Shown in pieces: positions 1 to 55,551 of a stretch of 56,643 nt of DNA. Source of the stretch: an uncultured Gammaproteobacteria bacterium (GTDB lineage Bacteria > Patescibacteriota > Patescibacteriia > SG8-24); assembly GCA_964486995.1 (NCBI GenBank), contig CAZAOV010000005.1:13903-70545 (forward strand). Reading direction: 5' to 3'. Position numbers and translations under genes: made by a program. The stretch's first letter is position 1. The number at the start of each line of letters is the position of its first letter. The notes beneath the pieces were generated by a model. The model made no database searches. It saw nothing but the letters and a program-made list of their open reading frames with translations, and had not been told where the DNA came from.

Positions 1-55
1 GGTTGAGGAGGCTCCGGTTGAGGAGGCTCCGGTTGAGGAGGCTCCGGTTGAGGAG
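1..55 (+). repeat. 15-nt tandem repeat ggttgaggaggctcc, about 3.5 copies
   Basis: Perfect head-to-tail copies at the window edge. The unit is 5 codons, so it stays in frame. Confidence 0.95.
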
Positions 56-5750: not shown

Positions 5751-5754
5751 TATG

Positions 5755-5783
5755 AAAACCCGAGTTGTGACTCGGGTTTTTTC
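5755..5783 (+). terminator. Rho-independent terminator
   Basis: acccgag/ctcgggt stem plus tttttt. Confidence 0.8.
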
Positions 5784-5811
5784 TTTGGTTTTGATATACT
5801 GTTTCAACACC

Positions 5812-5896
5812 TAACCCACGCGAGGACATGCTGTAATGCGCGCGGCCAGCAGCGTTCAGCGTGTCCGAGCCACCTATTAGAAGTAAGACACCACAT
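5812..5896 (+). promoter_or_regulatory. Composite copy (A) of the recurrent pre-ATG leader element
   Basis: 5861-5896 is 35/36 identical to 32150-32185. 5812-5829 matches 32100-32117 at 17/18. 5828-5844 is identical to 32782-32798. Confidence 0.8.
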
Positions 5897-6094
5897 ATGT
5901 TAGATAACCACCTCTACAACTTAATGTCACAAATTGTTGAAGATCATCGTTCGCTTTGGCGTATGCGCGACATGTACGAAAATGATTCCGGTGAATGTAT
6001 AGAATGCCGCGAAATGTGGCAGAAGATAGCTGACGAACGCGAGGTCGAACTTAATAATTTGGTCCAAAAACTCAAAGCACACCTGACCGAATAA
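5897..6094 (+). CDS. Hypothetical small helical protein (65 aa, CxxC)
   Basis: The ATG directly follows the conserved leader. The tracked ORF start at 5861 is the GTG inside the leader motif. Confidence 0.6.
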   Translation: MLDNHLYNLMSQIVEDHRSLWRMRDMYENDSGECIECREMWQKIADEREVELNNLVQKLKAHLTE

Positions 6095-6135: not shown

Positions 6136-7572
6136 TTATAGTCCGATCGTCGCCGCCTCGACAGTTTCTCCTAACAGCAGGAGCGGTTCTCCCATTGGAT
6201 GCAGAGCCAGGGCCTTATCGTTGCAGGTAACAATCGAGGTCCAGTTATATCCGTATCCCAGGAATACTTCCTCGCTCGGTATGCGACGGCGAAAGCTATC
6301 GGAAATGACAAATACGGCCGGGTCATCAGGAGATTTGGCGAGCGTGCCTTCGGGGAAAGTAACTGGTTCACCGATTGAATACTCAACAATTTCTTCGGGT
6401 GAGGCTGGAATGACAGATCTTTCGCCAAATCGCGCCTTTAAGATTGCAATGTCCCAAATCGCATGGCGTACGCCATTTTCTACGTACCACACGCCTCCGG
6501 TGACCGAGTCCTGAATCAGCTGACCAAGCGGGTAAGCACTTTCCAACGTAATCATGTTGCCGAGGCTATAGTCCTCGATATCCTCTAGCGACACCTCTTC
6601 TACCTCTTCTGGGTTGAATCCAATTTCTCGGAACACATCTTCCGATGCTATCGGTCGTCGCTCGTCACCAATTAGCAAATAGATTACGCCGTTCTCGTCG
6701 CTTACCAGTGACAAATCCGGGAATGACAGCGGTTTGCCCGGATTGGCTTCTTCCAGTGCGCGGAATTCATATTCACCTAACACCACCGGAGCGCGATTGC
6801 CGAACCGTGACTCCAATACCGACTGACTTATTATCGGTCGGAACTTACGACCCTGAATTATGGCATATGCGCCGGTTTCCTCATTCATTACTAGCGTGCC
6901 GTCTGGAAACATAATTTCTCCGACACCTTCCCCCCACCATCGCTGCCAGATATTATAGAATAGCTTGTTGCCGTGAATGTGCGGCGTATAATTATACATT
7001 CCGGCAGTTGCCAAGTTTGCTGGCGTGACGTCTTTGTAGCTAATAGTATAGGTCACCTTCGGCTGTTTGAGGTAGTCCGGGACGTTAGACATGTACCAGT
7101 CCATCCAACCGGCAGCAGCATCAATTTGCTTGGCAAAGCCTTTATACTTTTGCGCCAGCGAACTGGATTTATAACAACCGTCACATAACGCGTATCCGGC
7201 AGCCCAATCCAGCTGATCTTTCGTAGGTTTGTCCGTTTCCACGATGCCCTGCTCTTTTTGCAGAATTGCGAGAACATATTTTGGATTGATGCTGTAGCGT
7301 TTGGCCGCATCATCGACGAGCTGGGCGGTTCCTTTGAGCAGACCGTCTATCGCGTCTACATCGAACTGATTATTTAAACCACCTTTTTCATCTAGGAAAT
7401 CATAGATTTCCTGAAAGTTCATCGCGTAAGCATCGCGCATTTCGTCATCCGACATAATATAGTTCGGATTGAAGGCAGCTGCCCGCGCTGGAAGCGGGAC
7501 GGCGCTTAATAACATGGCTGCGGTAGCCACGACCACGGTAATTTTTTTGCTGAAATTTTTGATGCTCATCAT
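6136..7572 (-). CDS. Secreted protein with four C-terminal ~55-aa repeats
   Basis: Signal peptide (AVPLPARAAA). The C-terminal half holds four repeats beginning FPDGTLV / FPDLSLV / YPLGQLI / FPEGTLA. Confidence 0.75.
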   Translation of the reverse strand: MMSIKNFSKKITVVVATAAMLLSAVPLPARAAAFNPNYIMSDDEMRDAYAMNFQEIYDFLDEKGGLNNQFDVDAIDGLLKGTAQLVDDAAKRYSINPKYVLAILQKEQGIVETDKPTKDQLDWAAGYALCDGCYKSSSLAQKYKGFAKQIDAAAGWMDWYMSNVPDYLKQPKVTYTISYKDVTPANLATAGMYNYTPHIHGNKLFYNIWQRWWGEGVGEIMFPDGTLVMNEETGAYAIIQGRKFRPIISQSVLESRFGNRAPVVLGEYEFRALEEANPGKPLSFPDLSLVSDENGVIYLLIGDERRPIASEDVFREIGFNPEEVEEVSLEDIEDYSLGNMITLESAYPLGQLIQDSVTGGVWYVENGVRHAIWDIAILKARFGERSVIPASPEEIVEYSIGEPVTFPEGTLAKSPDDPAVFVISDSFRRRIPSEEVFLGYGYNWTSIVTCNDKALALHPMGEPLLLLGETVEAATIGL

Positions 7573-9636: not shown

Positions 9637-9669
9637 CGAATATCCGAATTATCCGAGCTAGGAGGATCG

Positions 9670-12657: not shown

Positions 12658-13491
12658 ATGCCGAAAAAATCTTCGTTGAGGATAAATGACGGGGAGACGA
12701 ATCATGAACCCTATGCGATGCCGCTCGCTGAGCAGGTGGACATCGAAATCGGCGCGAACTGCATTGTCAGTATCATTGAACCGGCGGTTGGTCCGGCTTG
12801 TGCTGGTTTGGATAGCTCTGGCTTGTCGGTGACAATCGGTAAAGAATCCCTGGTTCGATTCACGTCTATCCGCGAATGCGCCGCGCACGGAAAGCGCGAC
12901 TACGCTTCGCGGTTTCAGCTGGCCGCTGGTGCGTCACTAGAAATTTTCGAATGCCGCCTGGGTGGCGGTGACATCAACGCCGTGGCTCAGGTAGATCTGC
13001 TGGGTATAGACGCCAAAGTCACTGTGCGTTCAGCGCTGTTCGCCGCAGAAACCGACCATCTGCTGTCAGAAATCAACATCAATCATTTCGCGTCGCGCAC
13101 CACTTCACGTATTATTACTAAAGGAGTTTTGGCCGACCGGGCGCGAATCGAGTACCGTGGATTGGTCAGCATAAATAAAGAAACCTTGGGCTGTGTGGGC
13201 GAGCAGTATGCCGATGCCCTGCTGTTGTCCGCCGACGCCCGCGCTGACTTGATGCCAAATCTAAAAATCGATGCCAACGACGTTCGTTGCGGTCACGGTA
13301 CTGCAGTGTCCGGAATGGATGAGCAAAAGTTGTACTATTTAATGTCTCGTGGTTTGAGTCGAGCCGCGGCCATGGAAGCGGCGACGCGCGGTTTCATGGC
13401 CGATGTACTTTCCAGCCTACCCGAGCAGGAAATCGACACAGTTGAAAAAATTATCACCCCGCGCCTGCAATGCGCGTTAGCTGTCACATAA
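12658..13491 (+). CDS. sufD: Fe-S cluster assembly protein SufD
   Basis: SufB/D C-terminal domain (NDVRCGHGTAVSGMDEQKLYYLMSRGL). The start is uncertain. TTG 12553 and ATG 12562 would add a Cys-rich, low-complexity stretch. Confidence 0.8.
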   Translation: MPKKSSLRINDGETNHEPYAMPLAEQVDIEIGANCIVSIIEPAVGPACAGLDSSGLSVTIGKESLVRFTSIRECAAHGKRDYASRFQLAAGASLEIFECRLGGGDINAVAQVDLLGIDAKVTVRSALFAAETDHLLSEININHFASRTTSRIITKGVLADRARIEYRGLVSINKETLGCVGEQYADALLLSADARADLMPNLKIDANDVRCGHGTAVSGMDEQKLYYLMSRGLSRAAAMEAATRGFMADVLSSLPEQEIDTVEKIITPRLQCALAVT

Positions 13492-13535
13492 CTCATGCGG
13501 GGACATTTATTTATCGAATGACTAGACCGCAAAAT

Positions 13536-13575
13536 GTGTGCCCGAGCTATCTATTAGAAATAAGACGTCACCTTA
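13536..13575 (+). promoter_or_regulatory. Copy B of the recurrent pre-ATG leader element
   Basis: gtgtgcccgagctatctattagaaataagacgtcacctta then ATG. It shares a 15-nt identical core, tattagaaataagac, with copies A and C. Confidence 0.7.
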
Positions 13576-14799
13576 ATGCCATTATTTAAAAAAACACGAC
13601 GAGACGATTTTCCGACGTTCAAGTTCGAATATGGAGCTGGTCGGCCTTATCACTTTCTAGATTCGGCGGCGTCGTCGCTCACGCCAAAACCGGTGCTGGA
13701 TGCGATGGATTTATATTATCGAACGTATCGCGCCAACGTGCATCGCGGTTTGTATCGCGCCAGCAACAAGGCGACCTTAGAATATGAAGTGGCTCGTGAA
13801 AATGTGGCCGAGCTGATTAATGCCGATCCAAAGGAAGTGGTTTTTACTTGTGGCACTACCGAGTCTTTAAATTTGGTCGCCTATTCGTTGGCTCCAACAT
13901 TGAAGCCGGAGGATGAGGTGGTGATTTCCATCATGGAACATCATGCTAACTTTGTGCCGTGGCAGCAGATGGCCAAGCGCTACGGGTTCAAGCTGCATAT
14001 CTTGTCGATTACCGACCAATATGAGCTAGACATGGACGAGGCGCGACGAGTGATTGGTCCGAACACTAAGGTGGTTTCAATCGCGCATGTGTCGAATGTC
14101 CTCGGAACCGTAAATCCGATCAAAGAGCTGGTCGATTTGGGTCATCAACATGGTGCGGTCGCTATCGTTGACGCGGCGCAGTCGTTGGGGCATCGACCGG
14201 TTGATGTGCAGGAGTTGGGATGCGATTTTCTGGCGCTTTCGAGCCATAAGGCCTATGGACCGACCGGTATCGGGGTGCTCTGGGGTAAAAAGAAAGCGCT
14301 AGAAAATTTGGCGCCGTTTCAGTTCGGTGGGGAGATGATTATCGAAGTGACCAAGGAAGATTCCGAATGGAATGAGGTGCCACACAAGTTTGAGGCTGGT
14401 ACGCCGAATATCGCCGGTGCCATCGGTTTGGGTGCGGCCGCAAACTACATTAAAGAGATCGGCATCGAAGAAATTTCAAAGCATGAGCGGGATATCACTA
14501 AATATGCCATCGAACAGATGTCTGAAATTGACGGCTTGAAAATCATTGGCCCAGTCGCGAATGAGAATCGCGGCGGTGCGGTCTCGTTTGCGATTGACGA
14601 GATTCATCCGCATGATATGGCGCATGTCCTAGGCGGTAAGGGTGTATGCGTGCGTGGCGGTCATCATTGTGCCATGCCGCTAATGCAGGAGCTGGAACTG
14701 CCCGGCACCACCCGCGCCAGTTTCGGAATTTACAGCCAAGAAATGGACGTGGATGCGCTGGTTGAGGCCATCAAATATGCGAAAGATAAACTTAGATAG
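13576..14799 (+). CDS. sufS: Cysteine desulfurase SufS
   Basis: Class V aminotransferase with PLP lysine motif SSHKAYGPTG and catalytic Cys in RGGHHCA. Confidence 0.95.
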   Translation: MPLFKKTRRDDFPTFKFEYGAGRPYHFLDSAASSLTPKPVLDAMDLYYRTYRANVHRGLYRASNKATLEYEVARENVAELINADPKEVVFTCGTTESLNLVAYSLAPTLKPEDEVVISIMEHHANFVPWQQMAKRYGFKLHILSITDQYELDMDEARRVIGPNTKVVSIAHVSNVLGTVNPIKELVDLGHQHGAVAIVDAAQSLGHRPVDVQELGCDFLALSSHKAYGPTGIGVLWGKKKALENLAPFQFGGEMIIEVTKEDSEWNEVPHKFEAGTPNIAGAIGLGAAANYIKEIGIEEISKHERDITKYAIEQMSEIDGLKIIGPVANENRGGAVSFAIDEIHPHDMAHVLGGKGVCVRGGHHCAMPLMQELELPGTTRASFGIYSQEMDVDALVEAIKYAKDKLR

Positions 14800-19505: not shown

Positions 19506-19533
19506 CAAAAGCGTCCAAATGGGCGCTTTTGTT
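19506..19533 (+). terminator. Rho-independent terminator
   Basis: aaaagcgtcc-aaat-gggcgctttt hairpin. Confidence 0.75.
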
Positions 19534-19562
19534 ATTGACTTCAGGCTGTTTTTATCTTATTA
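19534..19562 (+). promoter_or_regulatory. Near-consensus sigma70 promoter giving a (nearly) leaderless thiI mRNA
   Basis: TTGACT-17 nt-TATTAT. Only 9 nt separate the -10 from the ATG at 19572, and there is no SD. Confidence 0.65.
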
Positions 19563-19571
19563 TGACCCACT

Positions 19572-20735
19572 ATGGCTGACTCAATTATCATCCACACAGA
19601 CGAGATTGCGCTTAAGGGCGGTAACAGGCACCAGTTTGAGCGAGCGTTGGTAAAGAATATCCGGAACCGATTGGTGGAAATCGGTGATTTTGAAGTCGTG
19701 AATCGTAAGGGGACGGTTGTGGTGCGGATCGGCAAGTCCATGAGCGAAGGTACGATTAGACAAGTGACTGAGGCGTTAAAATCGGTTTTTGGTATCGCTT
19801 ATTTCCGAGTGTCACATGAATGCAATGCGGATCTGTCGATTATTAAAAGACGTTCGGCTGAATTATGTTGCGAACTCTCCGGAACTTTCAGGGTAACCGC
19901 CAAACGTGGCAGTAAAAAATTTCCGCAGAAGTCCACGGAAATTATGCGACAGGTTGGCGGTGCGGTGCTGGCGGCGAATCAAAATCTAAAAGTTGATTTG
20001 CATAACCCGAATCATGTTTTGTATGTCGAAGTGAACGAAGACGGCGCTTTTGTCTCGCTTGACCGGACAGTCGGTGCAGGCGGCTTACCGACTGGAACCA
20101 CCGGTCGCGTGGTGGTGATGTTGTCCGGCGGAATCGATTCGCCGGTCGCCGCATATAAAGTGATGAGCCGTGGTTGCCGAGCAGTGTTTGTGCATTTTCA
20201 TAGTTATCCGCATGTCGGAAAAAAATCTATCGAGAAAGTTCGACGACTGGCGAAAATTCTAAATCGCTATCAATTGCGCAGTAAGCTGTTTATGGTGCCG
20301 TTTGCCAAGATTCAACGGGATATTACAGCTAAGACCGACGGAAAATTACGGGTGTTACTATATCGTCGTGCCATGTTACGCATCGCCGAGCGCATCGCAA
20401 ACGAGCAACATGCGTTGGGCTTGGTAACCGGAGACAGCATCGGACAAGTGGCATCGCAAACATTAGAAAACATTCGTACCGTTGGCGAGGCAGTTTCACT
20501 GCCCGTTCATCGACCGTTGATTGGTGAAGGTAAGTTGGAAATCGTGAATCGGGCCAAGCGTATAGGTACATTTGCGACTTCCATTGAGCCGCACGACGAC
20601 TGCTGCACCCTGTTTGTGCCGGATCATCCCGAACTGCGATCCACACCTGAACAGGTCGCCGCAGAAGAGCATAAGCTAGAACTTGACAAATTGATTGACG
20701 AGGCCATCTCACAAACCGAATCGGAAATGCTGTAA
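19572..20735 (+). CDS. thiI: tRNA 4-thiouridine synthase ThiI
   Basis: THUMP-type N-terminus and PP-loop SGGIDSPVAAY. Confidence 0.9.
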   Translation: MADSIIIHTDEIALKGGNRHQFERALVKNIRNRLVEIGDFEVVNRKGTVVVRIGKSMSEGTIRQVTEALKSVFGIAYFRVSHECNADLSIIKRRSAELCCELSGTFRVTAKRGSKKFPQKSTEIMRQVGGAVLAANQNLKVDLHNPNHVLYVEVNEDGAFVSLDRTVGAGGLPTGTTGRVVVMLSGGIDSPVAAYKVMSRGCRAVFVHFHSYPHVGKKSIEKVRRLAKILNRYQLRSKLFMVPFAKIQRDITAKTDGKLRVLLYRRAMLRIAERIANEQHALGLVTGDSIGQVASQTLENIRTVGEAVSLPVHRPLIGEGKLEIVNRAKRIGTFATSIEPHDDCCTLFVPDHPELRSTPEQVAAEEHKLELDKLIDEAISQTESEML

Positions 20736-23037: not shown

Positions 23038-23084
23038 ATGATTTTCGCTGTCTCCCACTAAAACACCACACTAAAGGAGGAGTC

Positions 23085-30138: not shown

Positions 30139-30167
30139 TTGACGCGGTTTTTTTATATCTTTATACT
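30139..30167 (+). promoter_or_regulatory. Near-consensus sigma70 promoter of the atp operon
   Basis: TTGACG-17 nt-TATACT. Confidence 0.7.
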
Positions 30168-30222: not shown

Positions 30223-30525
30223 ATGGCTACTTCCGAGCAGGACAGACAATACATGATGCTGGGGCTTAGAATCGTTGGTGAATTCGGTGTGATAATTGCC
30301 GCACCGGTGGTTATTTTAGCTATGCTTGGCAAATGGCTGGATACTCGCTATGATACCGCTCCGATGTTTTTGGTGGCTGGATTCATTTTTGCGGCGCTGT
30401 TGTCCGGCATCAGCATCTACCGACGCGCCAAACGTTTTGGCAAAGAGTATTTATCAATTGAGAAGACTGATCAGAATGATTCGAGCATAGACGGCGAAGA
30501 AGACACTAAGCAGCTCAACAATTAA
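30223..30525 (+). CDS. AtpZ/AtpI-like small membrane protein of ATP synthase operons
   Basis: Two TM helices with GKWLDTRYDT between them, in first position of the atp operon. Confidence 0.7.
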   Translation: MATSEQDRQYMMLGLRIVGEFGVIIAAPVVILAMLGKWLDTRYDTAPMFLVAGFIFAALLSGISIYRRAKRFGKEYLSIEKTDQNDSSIDGEEDTKQLNN

Positions 30526-30548
30526 GCAACTCAACAACTCCATAGCTT

Positions 30549-31442
30549 ATGGCAGTTCCCGTACAGGCAGATCAATTATTCACTGTGGCTAATGTTCCGG
30601 TCACCAATTCAATGATCAACGCTTGGATAGCGCTCGCGCTATTCTTAGCTCTCGCTGTTGCTTTGCGTAAGCCGGCGAATGGTGCGCCGCGCGGAATTCG
30701 CAACATGGCGGAAGCAGTACTGGAGTTTATGCTCGGTTTTATGGACCAGGTTACCGGTGACCGAGCAAAATCAAGGAAGTTCTTCCCGGTAGTCGGGGCG
30801 CTCTTCCTTTTTATATTGGTTTCGAACTGGATGGGGTTGCTCCCTGGTGTGGGTACGATTGGTTTCTGGGCCGAGTCTCATGGTAGTGCGCACTTGATTC
30901 CGCTTTTCCGGCCGGCCACCAGCGACCTAAACATGACATTGGCTATGGGGCTATCTGCAGTCGTGGTCTCACATATTTTTGGTGTGGCAACAATCGGATT
31001 TTTCAAACATGCCAACAAGTTCATTCAGCTCGGTACGTTCTGGAAAGCGGTTACCGGTTTCAGAGGCAAAAAGGTGGGTAAATACGTGATTGATGTGTTT
31101 GTGGCGATTGTCGAATTGGGTGTCGGCCTGATTGAGTTGGTTTCCGAAGTTGCAAAAGTCGTTTCGTTGTCCCTGCGTCTGTTTGGTAATATCTTTGCCG
31201 GTGAAGTTTTGATTCACGTGATGATGGGTTTGATTGCTTTCATCATTCCGCTGCCGTTCATGGCTATGGAGGTCATTGTTGGCGTAGTGCAAGCTCTGGT
31301 GTTCTCGATGCTGACTTTGGTGTACCTGACGATCGCTACAGCTGAGCCGCATGGGGATCACGAAGAAGAGCACGAAAAGGAAGAGCATTTTCACGATGAA
31401 TATAGACCGGCAATGGAGGAGGCTGAGCCAAATCCCGCATAG
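30549..31442 (+). CDS. atpB: F0 ATP synthase subunit a
   Basis: LSLRLFGNIFAGEVL carries the conserved Arg motif. There is an unusual acidic, His-rich C-terminal extension. Confidence 0.95.
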   Translation: MAVPVQADQLFTVANVPVTNSMINAWIALALFLALAVALRKPANGAPRGIRNMAEAVLEFMLGFMDQVTGDRAKSRKFFPVVGALFLFILVSNWMGLLPGVGTIGFWAESHGSAHLIPLFRPATSDLNMTLAMGLSAVVVSHIFGVATIGFFKHANKFIQLGTFWKAVTGFRGKKVGKYVIDVFVAIVELGVGLIELVSEVAKVVSLSLRLFGNIFAGEVLIHVMMGLIAFIIPLPFMAMEVIVGVVQALVFSMLTLVYLTIATAEPHGDHEEEHEKEEHFHDEYRPAMEEAEPNPA

Positions 31443-31458
31443 GAGGTAATGGGTGATG

Positions 31459-31530
31459 AAAAGGTATAAAGGTCAAAAGGTTCAAAGTAAATTGCTTTTA
31501 ACCTTTAAACCTTTACAGCTTTAGACCTGT
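31459..31530. repeat. Octamer-periodic inverted arrays (aaaaggt units versus aaccttt units)
   Basis: aaaaggt-ataaaggt-caaaaggt-tcaaagt faces aaccttta-aaccttta-cagcttta-gacctgta. Related units recur at 35888-35930. Confidence 0.7.
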
Positions 31531-31593
31531 AAAGAAAGATTCTTAACTGGATTTAACGACGACGTTAAAAATAATACCCCGTCGAATCGTTGA

Positions 31594-31884
<291 letters not shown>

Positions 31885-32099
31885 GGTAGTATTTTACTGC
31901 CTAATAGGCTATGGGGATCCTGCCTAGATTGAGGGTGGGTATGTTGATTGCTGTTATTCATACGCAATACAACCAGTTCCCATGTGCAGTACGACACCTG
32001 GCGTTCTGCAACCAACTGATTGGTTGCAGTCGCTAGGAAAAAACATTGATAAGATCTATGCCGTTGTTTGCCCCGAGGCTCGGCATGCGCGCCATTACG

Positions 32100-32188
32100 T
32101 AACCCGCGCGAGGACATTCATTTTACCGGGCGTCCAGCCGGCAAAGTGTGTGTCCGAGCCACCTATTAGAAATAAGACACCACATTAT
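32100..32188 (+). promoter_or_regulatory. Copy C of the recurrent pre-ATG leader element
   Basis: gtgtccgagccacctattagaaataagacaccacat (32150-32185) is 35/36 identical to 5861-5896. The upstream module 32100-32117 is shared with 5812-5829. Confidence 0.8.
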
Positions 32189-32707
32189 ATGACTCCAGAA
32201 GTAGAATCCGCAGGAATCGCAGCCACACTCGGTTTAGACTATAAGCTGTTTTTAGCACAGCTCATAAACTTTGGTTTGATTGTGCTGGTGATTTGGAAAT
32301 TTGTTTACGGTCCTCTCGCCAAAGCCATGGATGAGCGCACAGCCAAAATCGATAAAGGCCTAAAAGATGCTAAGGAGGCTAAGGCAATGGTCGAGAACGC
32401 CGAATCCGAGCGCGAGAAACTGATTACTGAATCGCGTTTGAAAGCTAAGGAAATCATCGAGAGCGCGGAGGCCGACGCCAAGAAACGCCGGGATGAAATG
32501 GTCACTGGCGCCAAGTCCGAAGTGGAACGCGTTGTGACCGAGGGTAAGCAGAGATTACGTGATGAACAGGCGGCGATGGTGGAAAGCGCTCGTCAGCAGG
32601 TGGCCGAGTTGGTGCTCGTGGCGACCGAGAAGGTAACCGGCGAGAAAATGGATGAAAAGAAAGACGCTGCGCTAGTGAAAAAAGCATTAGAAGGCCCTCA
32701 TGTTTAA
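32189..32707 (+). CDS. atpF: F0 ATP synthase subunit b
   Basis: MTPEVESAG..., a single TM (LINFGLIVLVIWKFVYGPL), then a long charged helix. The tracked ORF from 31982 reads through the non-coding spacer. Confidence 0.9.
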   Translation: MTPEVESAGIAATLGLDYKLFLAQLINFGLIVLVIWKFVYGPLAKAMDERTAKIDKGLKDAKEAKAMVENAESEREKLITESRLKAKEIIESAEADAKKRRDEMVTGAKSEVERVVTEGKQRLRDEQAAMVESARQQVAELVLVATEKVTGEKMDEKKDAALVKKALEGPHV

Positions 32708-32781
32708 TGACGCCAAAAAGATAGAGCGTATGGTCGCTTCAAGGCTTGGAATGAGCGGCAATATGTCACCTGTGTGCGGAT

Positions 32782-32854
32782 ATGCTGTAATGCGCGCGAA
32801 TAGGAGTGATAAGCGTGTCCCCACCACCTATCTCAAACTAAAATACCACATTAT
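32782..32854 (+). promoter_or_regulatory. Copy D of the recurrent pre-ATG leader element
   Basis: atgctgtaatgcgcgcg (32782-32798) is identical to 5828-5844. gtgtccccaccacctatctcaaactaaaataccacattat then ATG. Confidence 0.7.
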
Positions 32855-33286
32855 ATGAGGTACTCAGCCAATGAATATGCTCGGGCGCTGTACGAGGTGA
32901 TTCGCGATAAGAGCGACAGCGAGTCCGAGCAGACAATCAACAAATTTTTATCCGACATGAAGGATCGCGGCCAGATGGCTCTACTGCCAGAAATACTCAA
33001 GGAGATGCCCGATGCAATAAAAGCCACCGAAGGAATAGAAGATGTTCTAATCGAAACCGCATACGACATCGATGATCAGACAGTATCGGCGGCGCTAAGA
33101 GCGCTTGGAAAGAATGAGTCTGAAGTGGAAGTTACGACAGCGAAAAATCCGGAGTTACTTGGAGGTATTAAAGTTAAGGGTCGTGACACGGTCATGGATG
33201 CGTCACTGAAAGGACGGTTAAATATGTTGCGCGAAGCATTCGCCCGTCCAGCTGATTCACGTCTTGGCACAGACGCCAATACATAA
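32855..33286 (+). CDS. atpH: F1 ATP synthase subunit delta (OSCP), short form
   Basis: YARALYEV..., LLGGIKVKGRDTVMDASLKGRL is the C-terminal delta motif. Its operon position supports the call. Confidence 0.85.
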   Translation: MRYSANEYARALYEVIRDKSDSESEQTINKFLSDMKDRGQMALLPEILKEMPDAIKATEGIEDVLIETAYDIDDQTVSAALRALGKNESEVEVTTAKNPELLGGIKVKGRDTVMDASLKGRLNMLREAFARPADSRLGTDANT

Positions 33287-33328
33287 CCCGCATGAAGACA
33301 GGCCATTCGTAGCTATAGCGGAGGCAGC

Positions 33329-33367
33329 CTGTCTGAGCCACCTATTTCAATTAAAAAACTATATATT
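33329..33367 (+). promoter_or_regulatory. Copy E of the recurrent pre-ATG leader element
   Basis: ctgtctgagccacctatttcaattaaaaaactatatatt then ATG. It shares the gagccacctat core. Confidence 0.6.
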
Positions 33368-34921
33368 ATGGCTACCAAAGATTTCATCTTGGAATCACTC
33401 AAAAAGCAGATTGCTGGATTGGACGTTGAATCGCAGATTCAAAAAGTCGGCACGGTAGTGGAGGTCGCGGATGGCGTGGCTCGAATGACCGGCCTGTCCG
33501 AGTGTCTATCCATGGAAATGCTCGAGTTTTCGAACGACACGTACGGTGTGGCGCTGAACGTGGAGAAAGAAACCGTCGGCGCGATGATTCTCGGCGACTA
33601 TTCGCATATTAAAGAAGGAGACGAAGTTAAGACCACCGGACGCGTGTTGTCGTTGGAGGTGAGTGACGATATGGTTGGTCGCGTCATTGATCCGCTAGGG
33701 CGCCCGATTGACGGCAGGGGTCCGATTGGCGGCAACAAGAAGGTCATGCCAATCGAGAAGATCGCACCGGGCGTGATTACTCGCAAGTCGGTTTCTGTTC
33801 CGTTGCAGACCGGCATCAAAGCGATTGACTCGATGATTCCGATTGGCCGCGGTCAACGCGAGCTAATCATTGGAGATAGACAAACCGGTAAGACCGCCAT
33901 CGCCATCGACACCATCATGAATCAGGGCGATGACATCACCTGTATCTACGTTGCAATCGGACAGAAGGAGTCCAAGGTCGCGCAGATCGTCGCCAAGCTC
34001 GAACAGGCTGGTGCCATGAAGCATACTATCGTGGTTGTGGCTGGTGCCTCTGACCCGGCTTCGCTCGCATACCTTGCTCCGTACTCCGGCACCACTGTCG
34101 GTGAGTACTTCATGGATAAGGGTGAGGATGCGCTCGTGATTCACGACGACCTTTCCAAGCACGCTTGGGCGTATCGAGAGGTGTCGCTGTTGCTGCGCCG
34201 CCCGCCAGGTCGTGAGGCTTATCCGGGCGATGTATTCTACTTGCACTCTCGTTTGCTGGAGCGTTCGGCGCGTGTTAACGATTCGCACGGTGGTGGTTCT
34301 CTGACCGCCCTGCCGGTGATTGAAACCCAGTCCGGTGACGTGTCCGCCTACATTCCGACTAACGTCATCTCCATTACCGACGGTCAGATTTATCTGGAGC
34401 CGGATCTGTTCTACCGTGGCATTCGTCCGGCGGTGAACGCCGGTCTGTCCGTATCCCGAGTAGGTTCAGCCGCGCAGGTCAAGGCCGTGAAGAAAGTCGC
34501 TGGCCAGCTCCGTCTGGACCTGGCGCAGTTCCGTGAACTCGAGGCTTTTGCTCAGTTTGCAACCGACTTGGATGAAGCGACCCGTAAGCAGCTTGATCGC
34601 GGTAAACGCGCTGTAGAAATCCTGAAACAGGATCAGTACAAGCCGCTTTCAGTACCGGCTCAGGTTTCGGTTCTATATGCACTTACACGCGGGTATCTGG
34701 ACAAAATTCCAGAAAATAGCATTAAGGAATGGGAAGAAAAGTTCCTGCGCTATATGGAAACCTCTCGCAAGGATGTCATGGACATGATCGAGAAGGAGAA
34801 GGATTTGAACGACAAGGTTGAGGATGGGTTGAAAGAGGCGATTGAGGAGTTTAATAAGACATTTACAGTCGAAGAAGTTGCGGGAGAAGAGACTGAAGAA
34901 AAGAAAGAAAATAAGGAGTAA
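33368..34921 (+). CDS. atpA: F1 ATP synthase subunit alpha
   Basis: Walker A GDRQTGKT and overall alpha-subunit sequence. Confidence 0.97.
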
Positions 34922-45311: not shown

Positions 45312-45386
45312 AGTTCGGGAGTGCGGAAGTTCGGGAGTGCGGGAGCATTGAATCTCCTGATCTCCTGATCTCCTGAACTCCCGCAT
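45312..45386. repeat. Composite repeat hairpin in the mreB-mreC spacer
   Basis: agttcgggagtgcgg x2 (45312-45326, 45328-45342), then tctcctga x3 (45353-45376), then actcccgca followed by ttttt. The left (gggag) and right (ctcct/ctccc) arms are complementary. Confidence 0.85.
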
Positions 45387-45394
45387 TTTTGTTT

Positions 45395-55499: not shown

Positions 55500-55551
55500 G
55501 GGGAACCAAATCTGCCAGCCTTAGCGATCATTTAAGCCAAAAACACCATAG

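What the first reader, a model, noticed from the sequence alone, without database searches (positions are those of the whole stretch)
32150..32188. Recurrent 36-40 nt element placed exactly in front of the ATG of five unrelated, SD-less genes
GTGTCCGAGCCACCTATTAGAA(A/G)TAAGACACCACAT occurs at 5861-5896 (before a 65-aa ORF) and at 32150-32185 (before atpF) with 35/36 identity. Diverged copies abut the ATGs of sufS (13536-13575), atpH (32815-32854) and atpA (33329-33367). The shared core is GAGCCACCTAT...TAARAN. None of the five genes has a GGAGG-like SD, while other genes here do (cvpA at 23073-23080, the RHH gene at 9661-9665, the AdSS-like gene). Every copy carries a TAAGAC, TAAAAT or TAAAAA hexamer 7-10 nt from the ATG. 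That is the same spacing seen between clear consensus -10 boxes and the ATG at thiI (19557-19562, ATG 19572) and at the 29483 ORF. The element could therefore be a portable internal promoter producing leaderless mRNAs. Alternatively, the GUGUC...GACAC hairpin in copies A and C and the CCACCU tract could make it an RNA-level translational or regulatory site. I know of no described family that matches it.
Basis: partly seen in the sequence, partly recalled or inferred. Interest (0 to 1): 0.68.

Follow-up and report, generated by a model that had tools for sequence, protein, structure and literature searches.

The report
Start-codon-abutting structured repeat in CPR bacterium
A roughly 95-150-base repeat (stop codon, RNA hairpin, G-poor leader) has been inserted just upstream of five start codons in one candidate-phyla-radiation bacterium; it looks like a small lineage-specific mobile element transcribed within mRNAs, not an internal promoter.

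Summary
The window holds five co-oriented copies of a 95-nt element; three copies extend to about 150 nt. Each copy reads UAA, 5 nt, a hairpin usually closed by tandem G·A, then a 26-30-nt G-poor tail that ends 0-3 nt before a verified ATG. The genes are a 65-aa ORF, sufS, atpF, atpH and atpA. The hairpin shows compensatory changes in 7 of 14 pairs.

The organism is a Patescibacterium near Uhrbacteria. Five close relatives lack the element at the orthologous junctions. One relative (AtpA 91% identical) carries it instead before atpG. The family is therefore insertion-polymorphic, meaning mobile or duplicative.

No Rfam family, phage, plasmid, GTDB-representative or JGI-metagenome match was found. 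I found no sigma-70-like promoter inside any copy. Four copies are operon-internal, and the fifth lies downstream of its own promoter.

Lack of an SD is not distinctive, because 30 of 35 other genes here also lack one.

Best reading: an interspersed repeat acting, or tolerated, as an intercistronic "stop-hairpin-leader" RNA module. How it moves and what it does remain untested.

The parts
5808..5896 (+). Copy A (short form). UAA at 5812-5814, hairpin 5820-5870, G-poor tail 5871-5896, ATG of a conserved 65-aa Cys-rich ORF at 5897.
   Evidence: CM 97.9 bits. The start codon is conserved in L027.
5754..5800 (+). Terminator (5754-5781) and extended -10 promoter-like TGATATACT (5792-5800), just upstream of copy A. 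They place copy A in a 5' UTR.
   Evidence: Terminator. The promoter was read from the sequence and matches TGTTATAAT at the orthologous, element-free locus in L027.
13485..13575 (+). Copy B (short form), between sufD and sufS. Its UAA at 13489-13491 is the sufD stop codon. Hairpin 13497-13547, tail 13548-13575, sufS ATG at 13576.
   Evidence: CM 84.3 bits. Pfam SufBD and Aminotran_5. SufD C-terminus compared with L027.
32042..32188 (+). Copy C (long form), between atpE and atpF. 5' extension 32042-32095, UAA 32100-32102, hairpin 32108-32159 (G·A/A·G at 32110-11 and 32156-57), tail 32160-32188, atpF ATG at 32189.
   Evidence: CM 103.1 bits. Fold leaves the tail unpaired. Extension aligned.
32708..32854 (+). 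Copy D (long form). It fills the whole atpF-atpH spacer. Extension 32708-32761, UCA in place of UAA, hairpin 32774-32824, tail 32825-32854, atpH ATG at 32855.
   Evidence: CM 89.7 bits. In five relatives atpF and atpH overlap by 4 nt or lie 1-5 nt apart.
33250..33367 (+). Copy E. Its 5' extension (about 33250-33283) is read as the last roughly 12 codons of AtpH. UAA 33284-33286 is the atpH stop. Hairpin 33292-33338, tail 33339-33367, atpA ATG at 33368.
   Evidence: CM 82.6 bits. AtpH ends ...LREAFARPADSRLGTDANT*, against LREEFAKQN* and similar in relatives.
31875..31995 (-). Possible decayed copy in inverted orientation, directly after the atpE stop. Low confidence.
   Evidence: R1 11.5 bits, nhmmer E 2.8, alignment with patchy tail similarity.

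Best explanation
This is a lineage-restricted interspersed repeat of an Uhrbacteria-like Patescibacterium.

Each copy is a directional "stop-hairpin-leader" module:
- a UAA;
- 5 nt later, a hairpin whose base is GC + tandem G·A + GGACA/UGUCC and whose top varies;
- a 26-30-nt G-poor, C/A-rich single-stranded tail that ends at the AUG of the next gene.

Copies were gained at different intercistronic junctions in different close relatives. The family therefore spreads by transposition, or by duplication and recombination. The mechanism is unknown (inferred).

The element is transcribed as part of operon mRNAs or a 5' UTR (inferred from position). I propose that it works, or is tolerated, at the RNA level, in three ways (all inferred):
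- The UAA terminates whatever frame reads in.
- The hairpin insulates the downstream start region from upstream sequence, and may also stabilise or process the mRNA.
- The unstructured tail gives the SD-independent initiation context that most genes of this organism use.

It is not a promoter.
For: - **Family and structure.** There are five window copies at E 1e-15 to 1e-20. The hairpin is paired in 88% of cells, against 21-50% when the partners are slid. Seven of 14 pairs show changes on both sides, and 0 of 500 shuffles reach the covariation score. I count 10 G·U cells on the sense strand. About 4 cells are A·C, which would be the G·U pairs of the other strand (my tally from the pair table, five window copies).
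- **Insertion polymorphism.**
  - The atpF-atpH spacer is 147 nt here. In L018, L019, L021, L023 and L028 the two genes overlap by 4 nt or lie 1-5 nt apart.
  - No copy was found in about 180 kb of DNA from relatives, except in L018. That genome carries one copy before atpG (40.6 bits) plus a truncated tandem copy, where the window has only 6 nt.
  - Copy E and the L018 copy belong to the same subfamily, yet sit at different loci.
- **Stop-codon role.** The element's UAA is the real stop of sufD and atpH, and it changes both C-termini.
- **Tail.** It holds 0-5 G, against 5.6 ± 2.2 in other genes' -30..-1 regions. Predicted unpaired probability is 0.57-0.84, against 0.47 ± 0.12.
- **Organism context.** The genome is SD-poor: 5 of 35 other genes have an SD-like 4-mer, and upstream regions are A/T-rich and G-poor.
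- **Position.** P is about 1e-8 to 1e-10 under random intergenic placement.
- **Not a promoter.**
- **Precedent.** In E. coli, REP hairpins closer than 16 nt to a stop codon affect translation of the upstream gene (PMC12306157). Here the hairpin starts 5-9 nt after the UAA.
Against: - There are no expression, 5'-end or ribosome data. The RNA-level function is inferred from anatomy alone.
- Only about 7 copies from two genomes were available, so the covariation counts rest on few, related and partly recombinant sequences.
- Hairpin conservation and the G·T bias would also fit a single-stranded-DNA substrate for a transposase.
- The tail's accessibility may follow simply from its base composition.
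- The tandem G·A is altered in copies B and D.
- No mobilising enzyme was found in the window.
- Abutment to the ATG could reflect target-site choice rather than function.
Confidence: 0.5

Rival explanations
1. Purely selfish DNA-level mobile element. The hairpin is the single-strand DNA recognition structure of a transposase encoded elsewhere, for example an HUH enzyme of the IS200/IS605 or RAYT type. Target preference for A/T-rich sequence just before start codons, plus selection against disruptive insertions in a compact genome, would explain position and orientation. The RNA would have no function.
For: - The element is insertion-polymorphic between close relatives.
- It has no terminal inverted repeats.
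- Its conserved hairpin foot and strand asymmetry are what such elements show.
- In this 50% GC genome, A/T-rich sequence is concentrated just before ATGs.
- A decayed inverted fragment may exist.
Against: - No transposase domain was found in 56 kb.
- 5 of 5 window copies, plus the one in the relative, are co-oriented with the gene. They end within 0-3 nt of the ATG even where spacers of 87-300 nt were available.
- A conserved G-poor tail and a 5' UAA are not needed for transposition.
Confidence: 0.25
2. Portable internal promoter. The TAAGAC/TAAAAT hexamer would act as a -10 box and start leaderless or near-leaderless mRNAs at the abutting ATG.
For: - The hexamer lies 7-10 nt from the ATG in all copies.
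- This organism probably does make leaderless mRNAs. thiI has TTGACT-17-TATTAT ending 9 nt before its ATG.
- Copy D has a good TAAAAT.
Against: - No -35/-10 pair is detected in any copy.
- The hexamer lacks the T at position 6 in A, B, C, E and the L018 copy (TTACAA).
- Four copies are operon-internal, after a strong operon promoter at 30139-30167.
- Copy A follows its own promoter.
- This reading does not explain the conserved hairpin or the 5' UAA.
Confidence: 0.1
3. Ligand- or protein-responsive cis-regulatory RNA (riboswitch-like element or regulon operator) that coordinates translation of atp, suf and the small Cys-rich protein.
For: - It has a covarying helix with conserved single-stranded flanks next to start codons.
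- There are several copies per genome, before energy and Fe-S genes.
- In copies A and C the 3' arm could pair instead with the tail (GUGUC/GACAC).
Against: - It is absent from the orthologous loci of relatives at 85-91% AtpA identity.
- The top of the hairpin is free to vary, with no conserved internal loop.
- The alternative pairing is not conserved in B, D, E or L018.
- There is no Rfam match.
- Three copies before consecutive cistrons of one operon is atypical for such elements.
Confidence: 0.1

Closest known systems
REP / BIME / REPIN elements of Proteobacteria
   Same: Short, multi-copy, extragenic, hairpin-forming repeats that are transcribed within operons. A hairpin close to a stop codon can affect the upstream gene and mRNA stability (PMC12306157, PMC3116915).
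   Different: REPs are palindromes of about 20-40 nt. They often occur in inverted pairs and in both orientations, lie mostly 3' of genes, and are linked to RAYT transposases. This element is 95-150 nt and directional, has long non-palindromic flanks, always abuts a start codon, and has no RAYT in view.
Transcribed MITE-like repeats (Correia/NEMIS of Neisseria, ERIC/IRU of enterobacteria and Yersinia, RUP and BOX of pneumococcus); compared from my own knowledge
   Same: About 100-150 nt, non-coding and insertion-polymorphic between strains. They insert between cistrons, fold in mRNA and can change expression of neighbours. BOX elements are modular, as the mosaic copies here are.
   Different: Those elements have terminal inverted repeats and usually a TA duplication, and they occur in both orientations. 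Here there are no TIRs, no clear duplication, a strict sense orientation, and a built-in stop codon and leader.
Unstructured A/U- or C/A-rich translational enhancers and standby sites (for example the E. coli atpE leader and CA-repeat enhancers); from my own knowledge
   Same: A G-poor, predicted single-stranded leader directly 5' of an AUG that has no SD. The leader is placed after a hairpin that keeps it free.
   Different: Those are single-locus leaders, not a repeated, mobile module. Enhancer activity has not been tested here.
Short-tandem-repeat hairpins at the same junctions in sister genomes
   Same: They occupy the atpE-atpF, atpH-atpA, atpG-atpD and suf junctions between a stop and the next ATG. 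They are strongly folded (z -3 to -7) and differ from genome to genome.
   Different: Their arms are built from 7-8-nt tandem repeats, and they share no sequence with this element. Their 3' arm runs almost to the ATG instead of leaving a 26-30-nt free tail.

Membership tests
Structured RNA or ssDNA hairpin element (generic) | Helix maintained by compensatory changes | tested here: met
   88% of cells paired; 7 of 14 pairs changed on both sides; 0 of 500 shuffles reach the covariation score; slid controls give 21-50% paired.
Interspersed mobile or duplicative repeat | Multi-copy, with presence/absence differences at orthologous sites in close relatives | tested here: met
MITE (Correia / ERIC / RUP type) | Terminal inverted repeats | tested here: not met
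   local alignment of the first 35 nt against the reverse complement of the last 35 nt scores 4-8, against a shuffle mean of 4.9-5.9.
MITE (Correia / ERIC / RUP type) | Target-site duplication | tested here: inconclusive
   Filled and empty sites at atpF-atpH allow at most an AT/TAT repeat. The boundaries cannot be fixed to the base.
REP / REPIN | Short palindrome occurring in inverted pairs and in both orientations | tested here: not met
   All six clear copies are single and co-oriented with the downstream gene. L018 has a direct tandem, not an inverted pair.
REP / REPIN | Associated RAYT (Y1 transposase) gene | not testable with these tools
   None was seen among the window proteins scanned with Pfam. 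The rest of the genome is not available.
Any Rfam 15 family (riboswitches, leaders, ribozymes) | Match to a curated covariance model | tested here: not met
   whole window at gathering threshold, 0 hits; 31400-33500 at E up to 10, no hit on any copy.
Riboswitch / conserved cis-regulatory leader | Conserved at orthologous loci across related genomes | tested here: not met
   Absent before atpF, atpH, atpA, sufS and the small ORF in relatives.
Sigma-70-type promoter giving leaderless mRNA | -35 and -10 hexamers with 16-18-nt spacing; conserved -10 with A at position 2 and T at position 6 | tested here: not met
   Searches find none inside any copy. The hexamer is TAAGAC, TAAAAA or TTACAA in five of six copies.
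Sigma-70-type promoter giving leaderless mRNA | Transcription start at or next to the ATG | not testable with these tools
   This needs 5'-end mapping.
K-turn / box C/D-like motif | Tandem G·A pairs next to a 3-nt bulge and a canonical stem | tested here: not met
   Read from the alignments. The G·A/A·G loop is symmetric (CGAG/CGAG) with no bulge, and it is altered in B and D.

The most novel reading that the evidence does not exclude
The element is a self-spreading translation-initiation cassette. On this reading it is a mobile module that carries its own stop codon, an insulating hairpin and an SD-independent ribosome-entry leader. It could then insert between tightly coupled cistrons of essential operons (atp, suf) without killing the host, and it would replace translational coupling with its own start signal. 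That would make it a natural "portable ribosome landing pad" in bacteria that largely lack Shine-Dalgarno initiation.
Probability: 0.22. Interest if true: 0.72.

Novelty: new variant of a known kind. Interest (0 to 1): 0.48.

Why it matters
- **Little is known here.** Patescibacteria (CPR) have genomes of about 1 Mb, few recognised mobile elements, almost no characterised regulatory RNAs, and an unstudied, largely SD-independent mode of initiation.
- **A natural experiment.** A directional repeat sits inside the ATP-synthase and Fe-S assembly operons and rewrites the ends of two proteins: AtpH gains about 12 residues and SufD loses about 4. It always delivers the same leader to the next start codon. 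This shows what a start site needs in these organisms.
- **Practical uses.**
  - It flags true start codons for gene callers.
  - It explains odd intergenic gaps and C-terminal extensions in CPR MAGs.
  - It gives a strain-level marker.
  - If the leader is active, it offers an insulated, SD-free initiation part.
- **If it is only selfish DNA.** It still documents recent mobile-element activity in a lineage thought to be nearly devoid of it.

Tried and rejected
It is present only in copies A and C and is not kept in B, D, E or L018. It also competes with the covarying P1 helix. Rejected as the conserved structure.
2. **Rfam.** Nothing at gathering threshold over the whole window, and nothing on the elements at E up to 10.
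3. **Exact-pattern scans.**
   - GTDB representative genomes gave 17 hits. Fifteen are in Prochlorococcus/Synechococcaceae; the one I read (L004) looks like coding sequence. The two Paceibacterota hits are the opposite strand of a predicted Mur-ligase-like N-terminus (HLIGIGGSGM).
   - JGI metagenomes gave 2 chance hits.
   - IMG/VR gave 0 hits.
   - These patterns were strict, so diverged relatives would be missed.
4. **BLASTN of the long form.** No match in phages or plasmids.
5. **Fetching the rest of the source contig.** It is 70.5 kb according to P0121. Look-ups of the window's own proteins failed or returned only a 1.2-kb Logan contig.
6. **K-turn or box C/D reading of the G·A pairs.** There is no 3-nt bulge. 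Rejected.
7. **An extra helix in the 5' extension** (GCGCG/CGCGC around the UAA). It forms in C and L018 but not in D or E. Not adopted.
8. **Coding potential of the element.** Open frames differ between copies because of a 1-nt indel in D. Not a conserved peptide.
9. **"AACCGCCTAT" before atpE and atpG as an excision scar.** L028 has a similar native junction. Not supported.
10. **"ACACCAY" as a general pre-ATG signal.** There are a few extra cases (cvpA, the 55552 gene, L023 atpE), too few to call.
11. **Literature searches** for CPR intergenic repeats or CPR translation initiation found nothing relevant.

Full report
**1. What is in the sequence**

The cited 36-mer is present at 5861-5896 and 32150-32185 and is 35/36 identical. 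Repeat finding and alignment showed that the similarity runs much further 5'. Each copy is about 95 nt.

The consensus layout is:

- UAC(A/G)**UAA**CCCGC;
- GC-GA-GGACA, then a variable stem-loop of about 35 nt, then UGUCC-GA-GC;
- CACCUAUUAGAAAUAAGACACCACAU(UAU), followed directly by AUG.

A covariance model built from the five copies was run over the window with filters off. It returns only these five copies, all on the + strand, at 83-103 bits. The next hit scores 14.7 bits. nhmmer gives the same picture.

Copies C and D share a further 5' extension of about 50 nt. Copy E, and the copy in the relative, carry a shorter part of that extension.

The five downstream ATGs (5897, 13576, 32189, 32855, 33368) are the real starts. 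The N-termini MLDNH..., MTPEVES..., MRYSANEYARALYEV... and [14 protein letters not shown]... match orthologues.

Pfam confirms the gene context:

- sufB - sufD - [B] - sufS - sufU - sufC
- atpI-like - atpB - atpE - [C] - atpF - [D] - atpH - [E] - atpA - atpG - atpD - atpC

**2. Structure**

RNAalifold and the pair count support one helix: 14 pairs, 88% of cells paired, and 7 pairs with changes on both sides. None of 500 shuffles reaches the covariation score. Sliding the 3' partner by 1-3 columns drops pairing to 21-50%.

The helix foot is G-C, C-G, a symmetric tandem G·A/A·G, then GGACA/UGUCC. The G·A pair is intact in A, C, E and the L018 copy, and altered in B and D.

I count 10 G·U cells on the sense strand. 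Roughly 4 cells are A·C, by my tally from the pair table. This mildly favours folding of the sense strand.

The tail from CCACCU to the AUG is G-poor, with 0-5 G in 30 nt. Other genes have 5.6 ± 2.2. The tail is predicted to be mostly unpaired, at 0.57-0.84 against 0.47 ± 0.12. In the minimum-free-energy fold of the long form of C, the whole tail is single-stranded.

**3. Organism and relatives**

The best AtpA hits are Patescibacteria, with Candidatus Uhrbacteria named among the next tier. The closest are 85-91% identical. I fetched atp, suf and lysS regions from six or more related genomes, about 180 kb in total.

With filters off, the model finds the element in only one of them. That genome is GCA_043804985.1 (AtpA 91%), and the site is one the window lacks: directly before atpG, at L018 6438-6520 with the ATG at 6521. 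A truncated tandem copy sits just after the atpA stop. The window has only 6 nt at that junction.

The reverse also holds:

- In five relatives atpF and atpH overlap by 4 nt or lie 1-5 nt apart. The window has 147 nt there, and copy D fills it.
- The atpH-atpA spacer is 5-34 nt in three relatives.
- The loci orthologous to A and B in GCA_043804985.1 carry no copy.

Copy E and the L018 copy belong to the same subfamily, so the family predates the split of the two genomes. The individual insertions are younger. The element is therefore mobile or duplicative.

Segment identities are mosaic. A is closest to C in the tail, A to D in the 5' half of the stem-loop, and B to C in the stem-loop. This suggests recombination among copies.

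**4. Effects on neighbours**

The 5' UAA of the element is the functional stop codon of sufD and atpH.

- SufD ends ...QCALAVT*, against ...KCALTTLDEVA* in the relative.
- AtpH runs about 12 codons into the element (...LREAFARPADSRLGTDANT*), against ...LREEFAKQN*.

The hairpin begins 5-9 nt after this stop. In E. coli, REP hairpins closer than 16 nt to a stop codon are reported to stall terminating ribosomes and lower expression of the upstream gene (PMC12306157, read).

**5. Promoter reading**

Consensus scans find no -35/-10 pair in any copy.

- A strong candidate operon promoter lies at 30139-30167, before the atpI-like gene.
- Copy A lies after a terminator (5754-5781) and an extended -10 (TGATATACT, 5792-5800).
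- The element-free orthologue in L027 has the same terminator-promoter arrangement, followed by a 31-nt UTR.
- Copy A is therefore a 5' UTR insert.
- The supposed -10 hexamer is TAAGAC, TAAAAA or TTACAA in five of six copies.

**6. Is "SD-less" special?**

No. Only 5 of 35 other ATG-start genes in the window have an SD-like 4-mer. Their upstream regions are A/T-rich and G-poor, with T at -1 in 63%. The tail fits the general start context of this organism.

**7. Position statistics**

I removed the copies and allowed any intergenic site in either orientation. Only 1.4% of choices end within 3 nt of a co-oriented start, and 3.4% within 8 nt. The chance of 5 of 5 is then about 4e-10 to 4e-8.

Compact spacers explain part of this for D and E. 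They do not explain C, where the native spacer is 87-266 nt in relatives, or A, where the spacer is about 125 nt.

**8. Comparison with known systems**

There is no Rfam match, no match in phages or plasmids, and no true match in strict pattern scans of GTDB representatives, JGI metagenomes or IMG/VR.

The element has no terminal inverted repeats, and no transposase domain was found among the window proteins scanned.

It works most like transcribed intergenic repeats such as REP/BIME, ERIC, Correia or BOX. It fails the defining tests for MITEs (TIRs) and for REP/REPIN (inverted pairs, both orientations).

Its distinctive traits are:

- strict sense orientation;
- a built-in stop codon;
- a leader that always ends at a start codon.

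**9. Verdict**

This is a real, non-random, lineage-specific structured repeat family, and I class it as a new variant of a known kind.

- **Shown:** the anatomy, the covarying helix, the insertion polymorphism, the positional bias and the absence of promoter consensus.
- **Inferred:** RNA-level action as an intercistronic stop-hairpin-leader module, and the mode of spread.

Noticed in passing
window 31443-31560; L018 3629-3781, 4698-4809, 7457-7577, 8976-9106; L027 8786-8969, 9894-10000, 11744-11806; L028 3345-3457, 4361-4521: A second class of intercistronic hairpins. Their arms are made of 7-8-nt tandem repeats, with a G/U-rich 5' arm and a C/A-rich 3' arm, and they end a few nt before the next ATG. 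They are very stable (z -3.3 to -7.4). Their sequence differs between sister genomes, and they occupy the same atp and suf junctions as the element studied here.
   Followed up: partly
window 32700-32858: A 52-codon ORF starts at an ATG 5 nt before the atpF stop (ATGTTTAA). It runs through the whole of copy D, where UCA replaces the element's UAA and there is a 1-nt insertion. It ends in a UGA that overlaps the atpH AUG (AUGA). It could restore translational coupling across the insert, or it could be chance.
   Followed up: partly
window 31982-32188: The atpF reading frame stays open for 69 codons upstream of the true ATG, through all of copy C. Automatic callers would report a 241-aa AtpF instead of 172 aa.
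   Followed up: no
window 33250-33286 and 13470-13491: The element changes protein ends. AtpH is about 12 residues longer than in relatives, and SufD is about 4 residues shorter. Both stop at the element's UAA.
   Followed up: yes
window 19527-19574: thiI has a consensus TTGACT-17-TATTAT whose -10 ends 9 nt before the ATG. It is probably a leaderless or near-leaderless mRNA, so leaderless initiation likely exists in this organism.
   Followed up: no
window, all genes: The genome is SD-poor. Only 5 of 35 ATG-start genes without the element have an SD-like 4-mer at -18..-4. T is at -1 in 63% of them, and upstream regions are G-poor.
   Followed up: partly
window 1-55: A perfect 15-nt tandem repeat, GGTTGAGGAGGCTCC, of about 3.7 units at the very start of the window.
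   Followed up: no
window 30505-30548 and 45340-45388: Unpaired C/A-rich short repeats lie directly upstream of atpB (CAGCTCAACAATTAAGCAACTCAACAACTCC) and of the 45389 ORF (CTCCTGAT x3). They resemble the 3' arms of the tandem-repeat hairpins.
   Followed up: no
window 23056-23078 and 55535-55551; L023 5610-5622: Tail-like ACACCA(C/U)A motifs occur just upstream of cvpA (followed there by a strong SD), of the 55552 gene and of atpE in a relative. This is possibly a favoured start context or a remnant of the tail.
   Followed up: partly
window 34880-34921: AtpA carries a Glu/Lys-rich C-terminal extension (...[12 protein letters not shown]). It is 517 aa, against 500-513 aa in the closest relatives.
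   Followed up: no
L018 6337-6523: Direct tandem of the element in the relative. A truncated first copy starts right after the atpA stop, and a complete second copy ends at the atpG ATG.
   Followed up: yes
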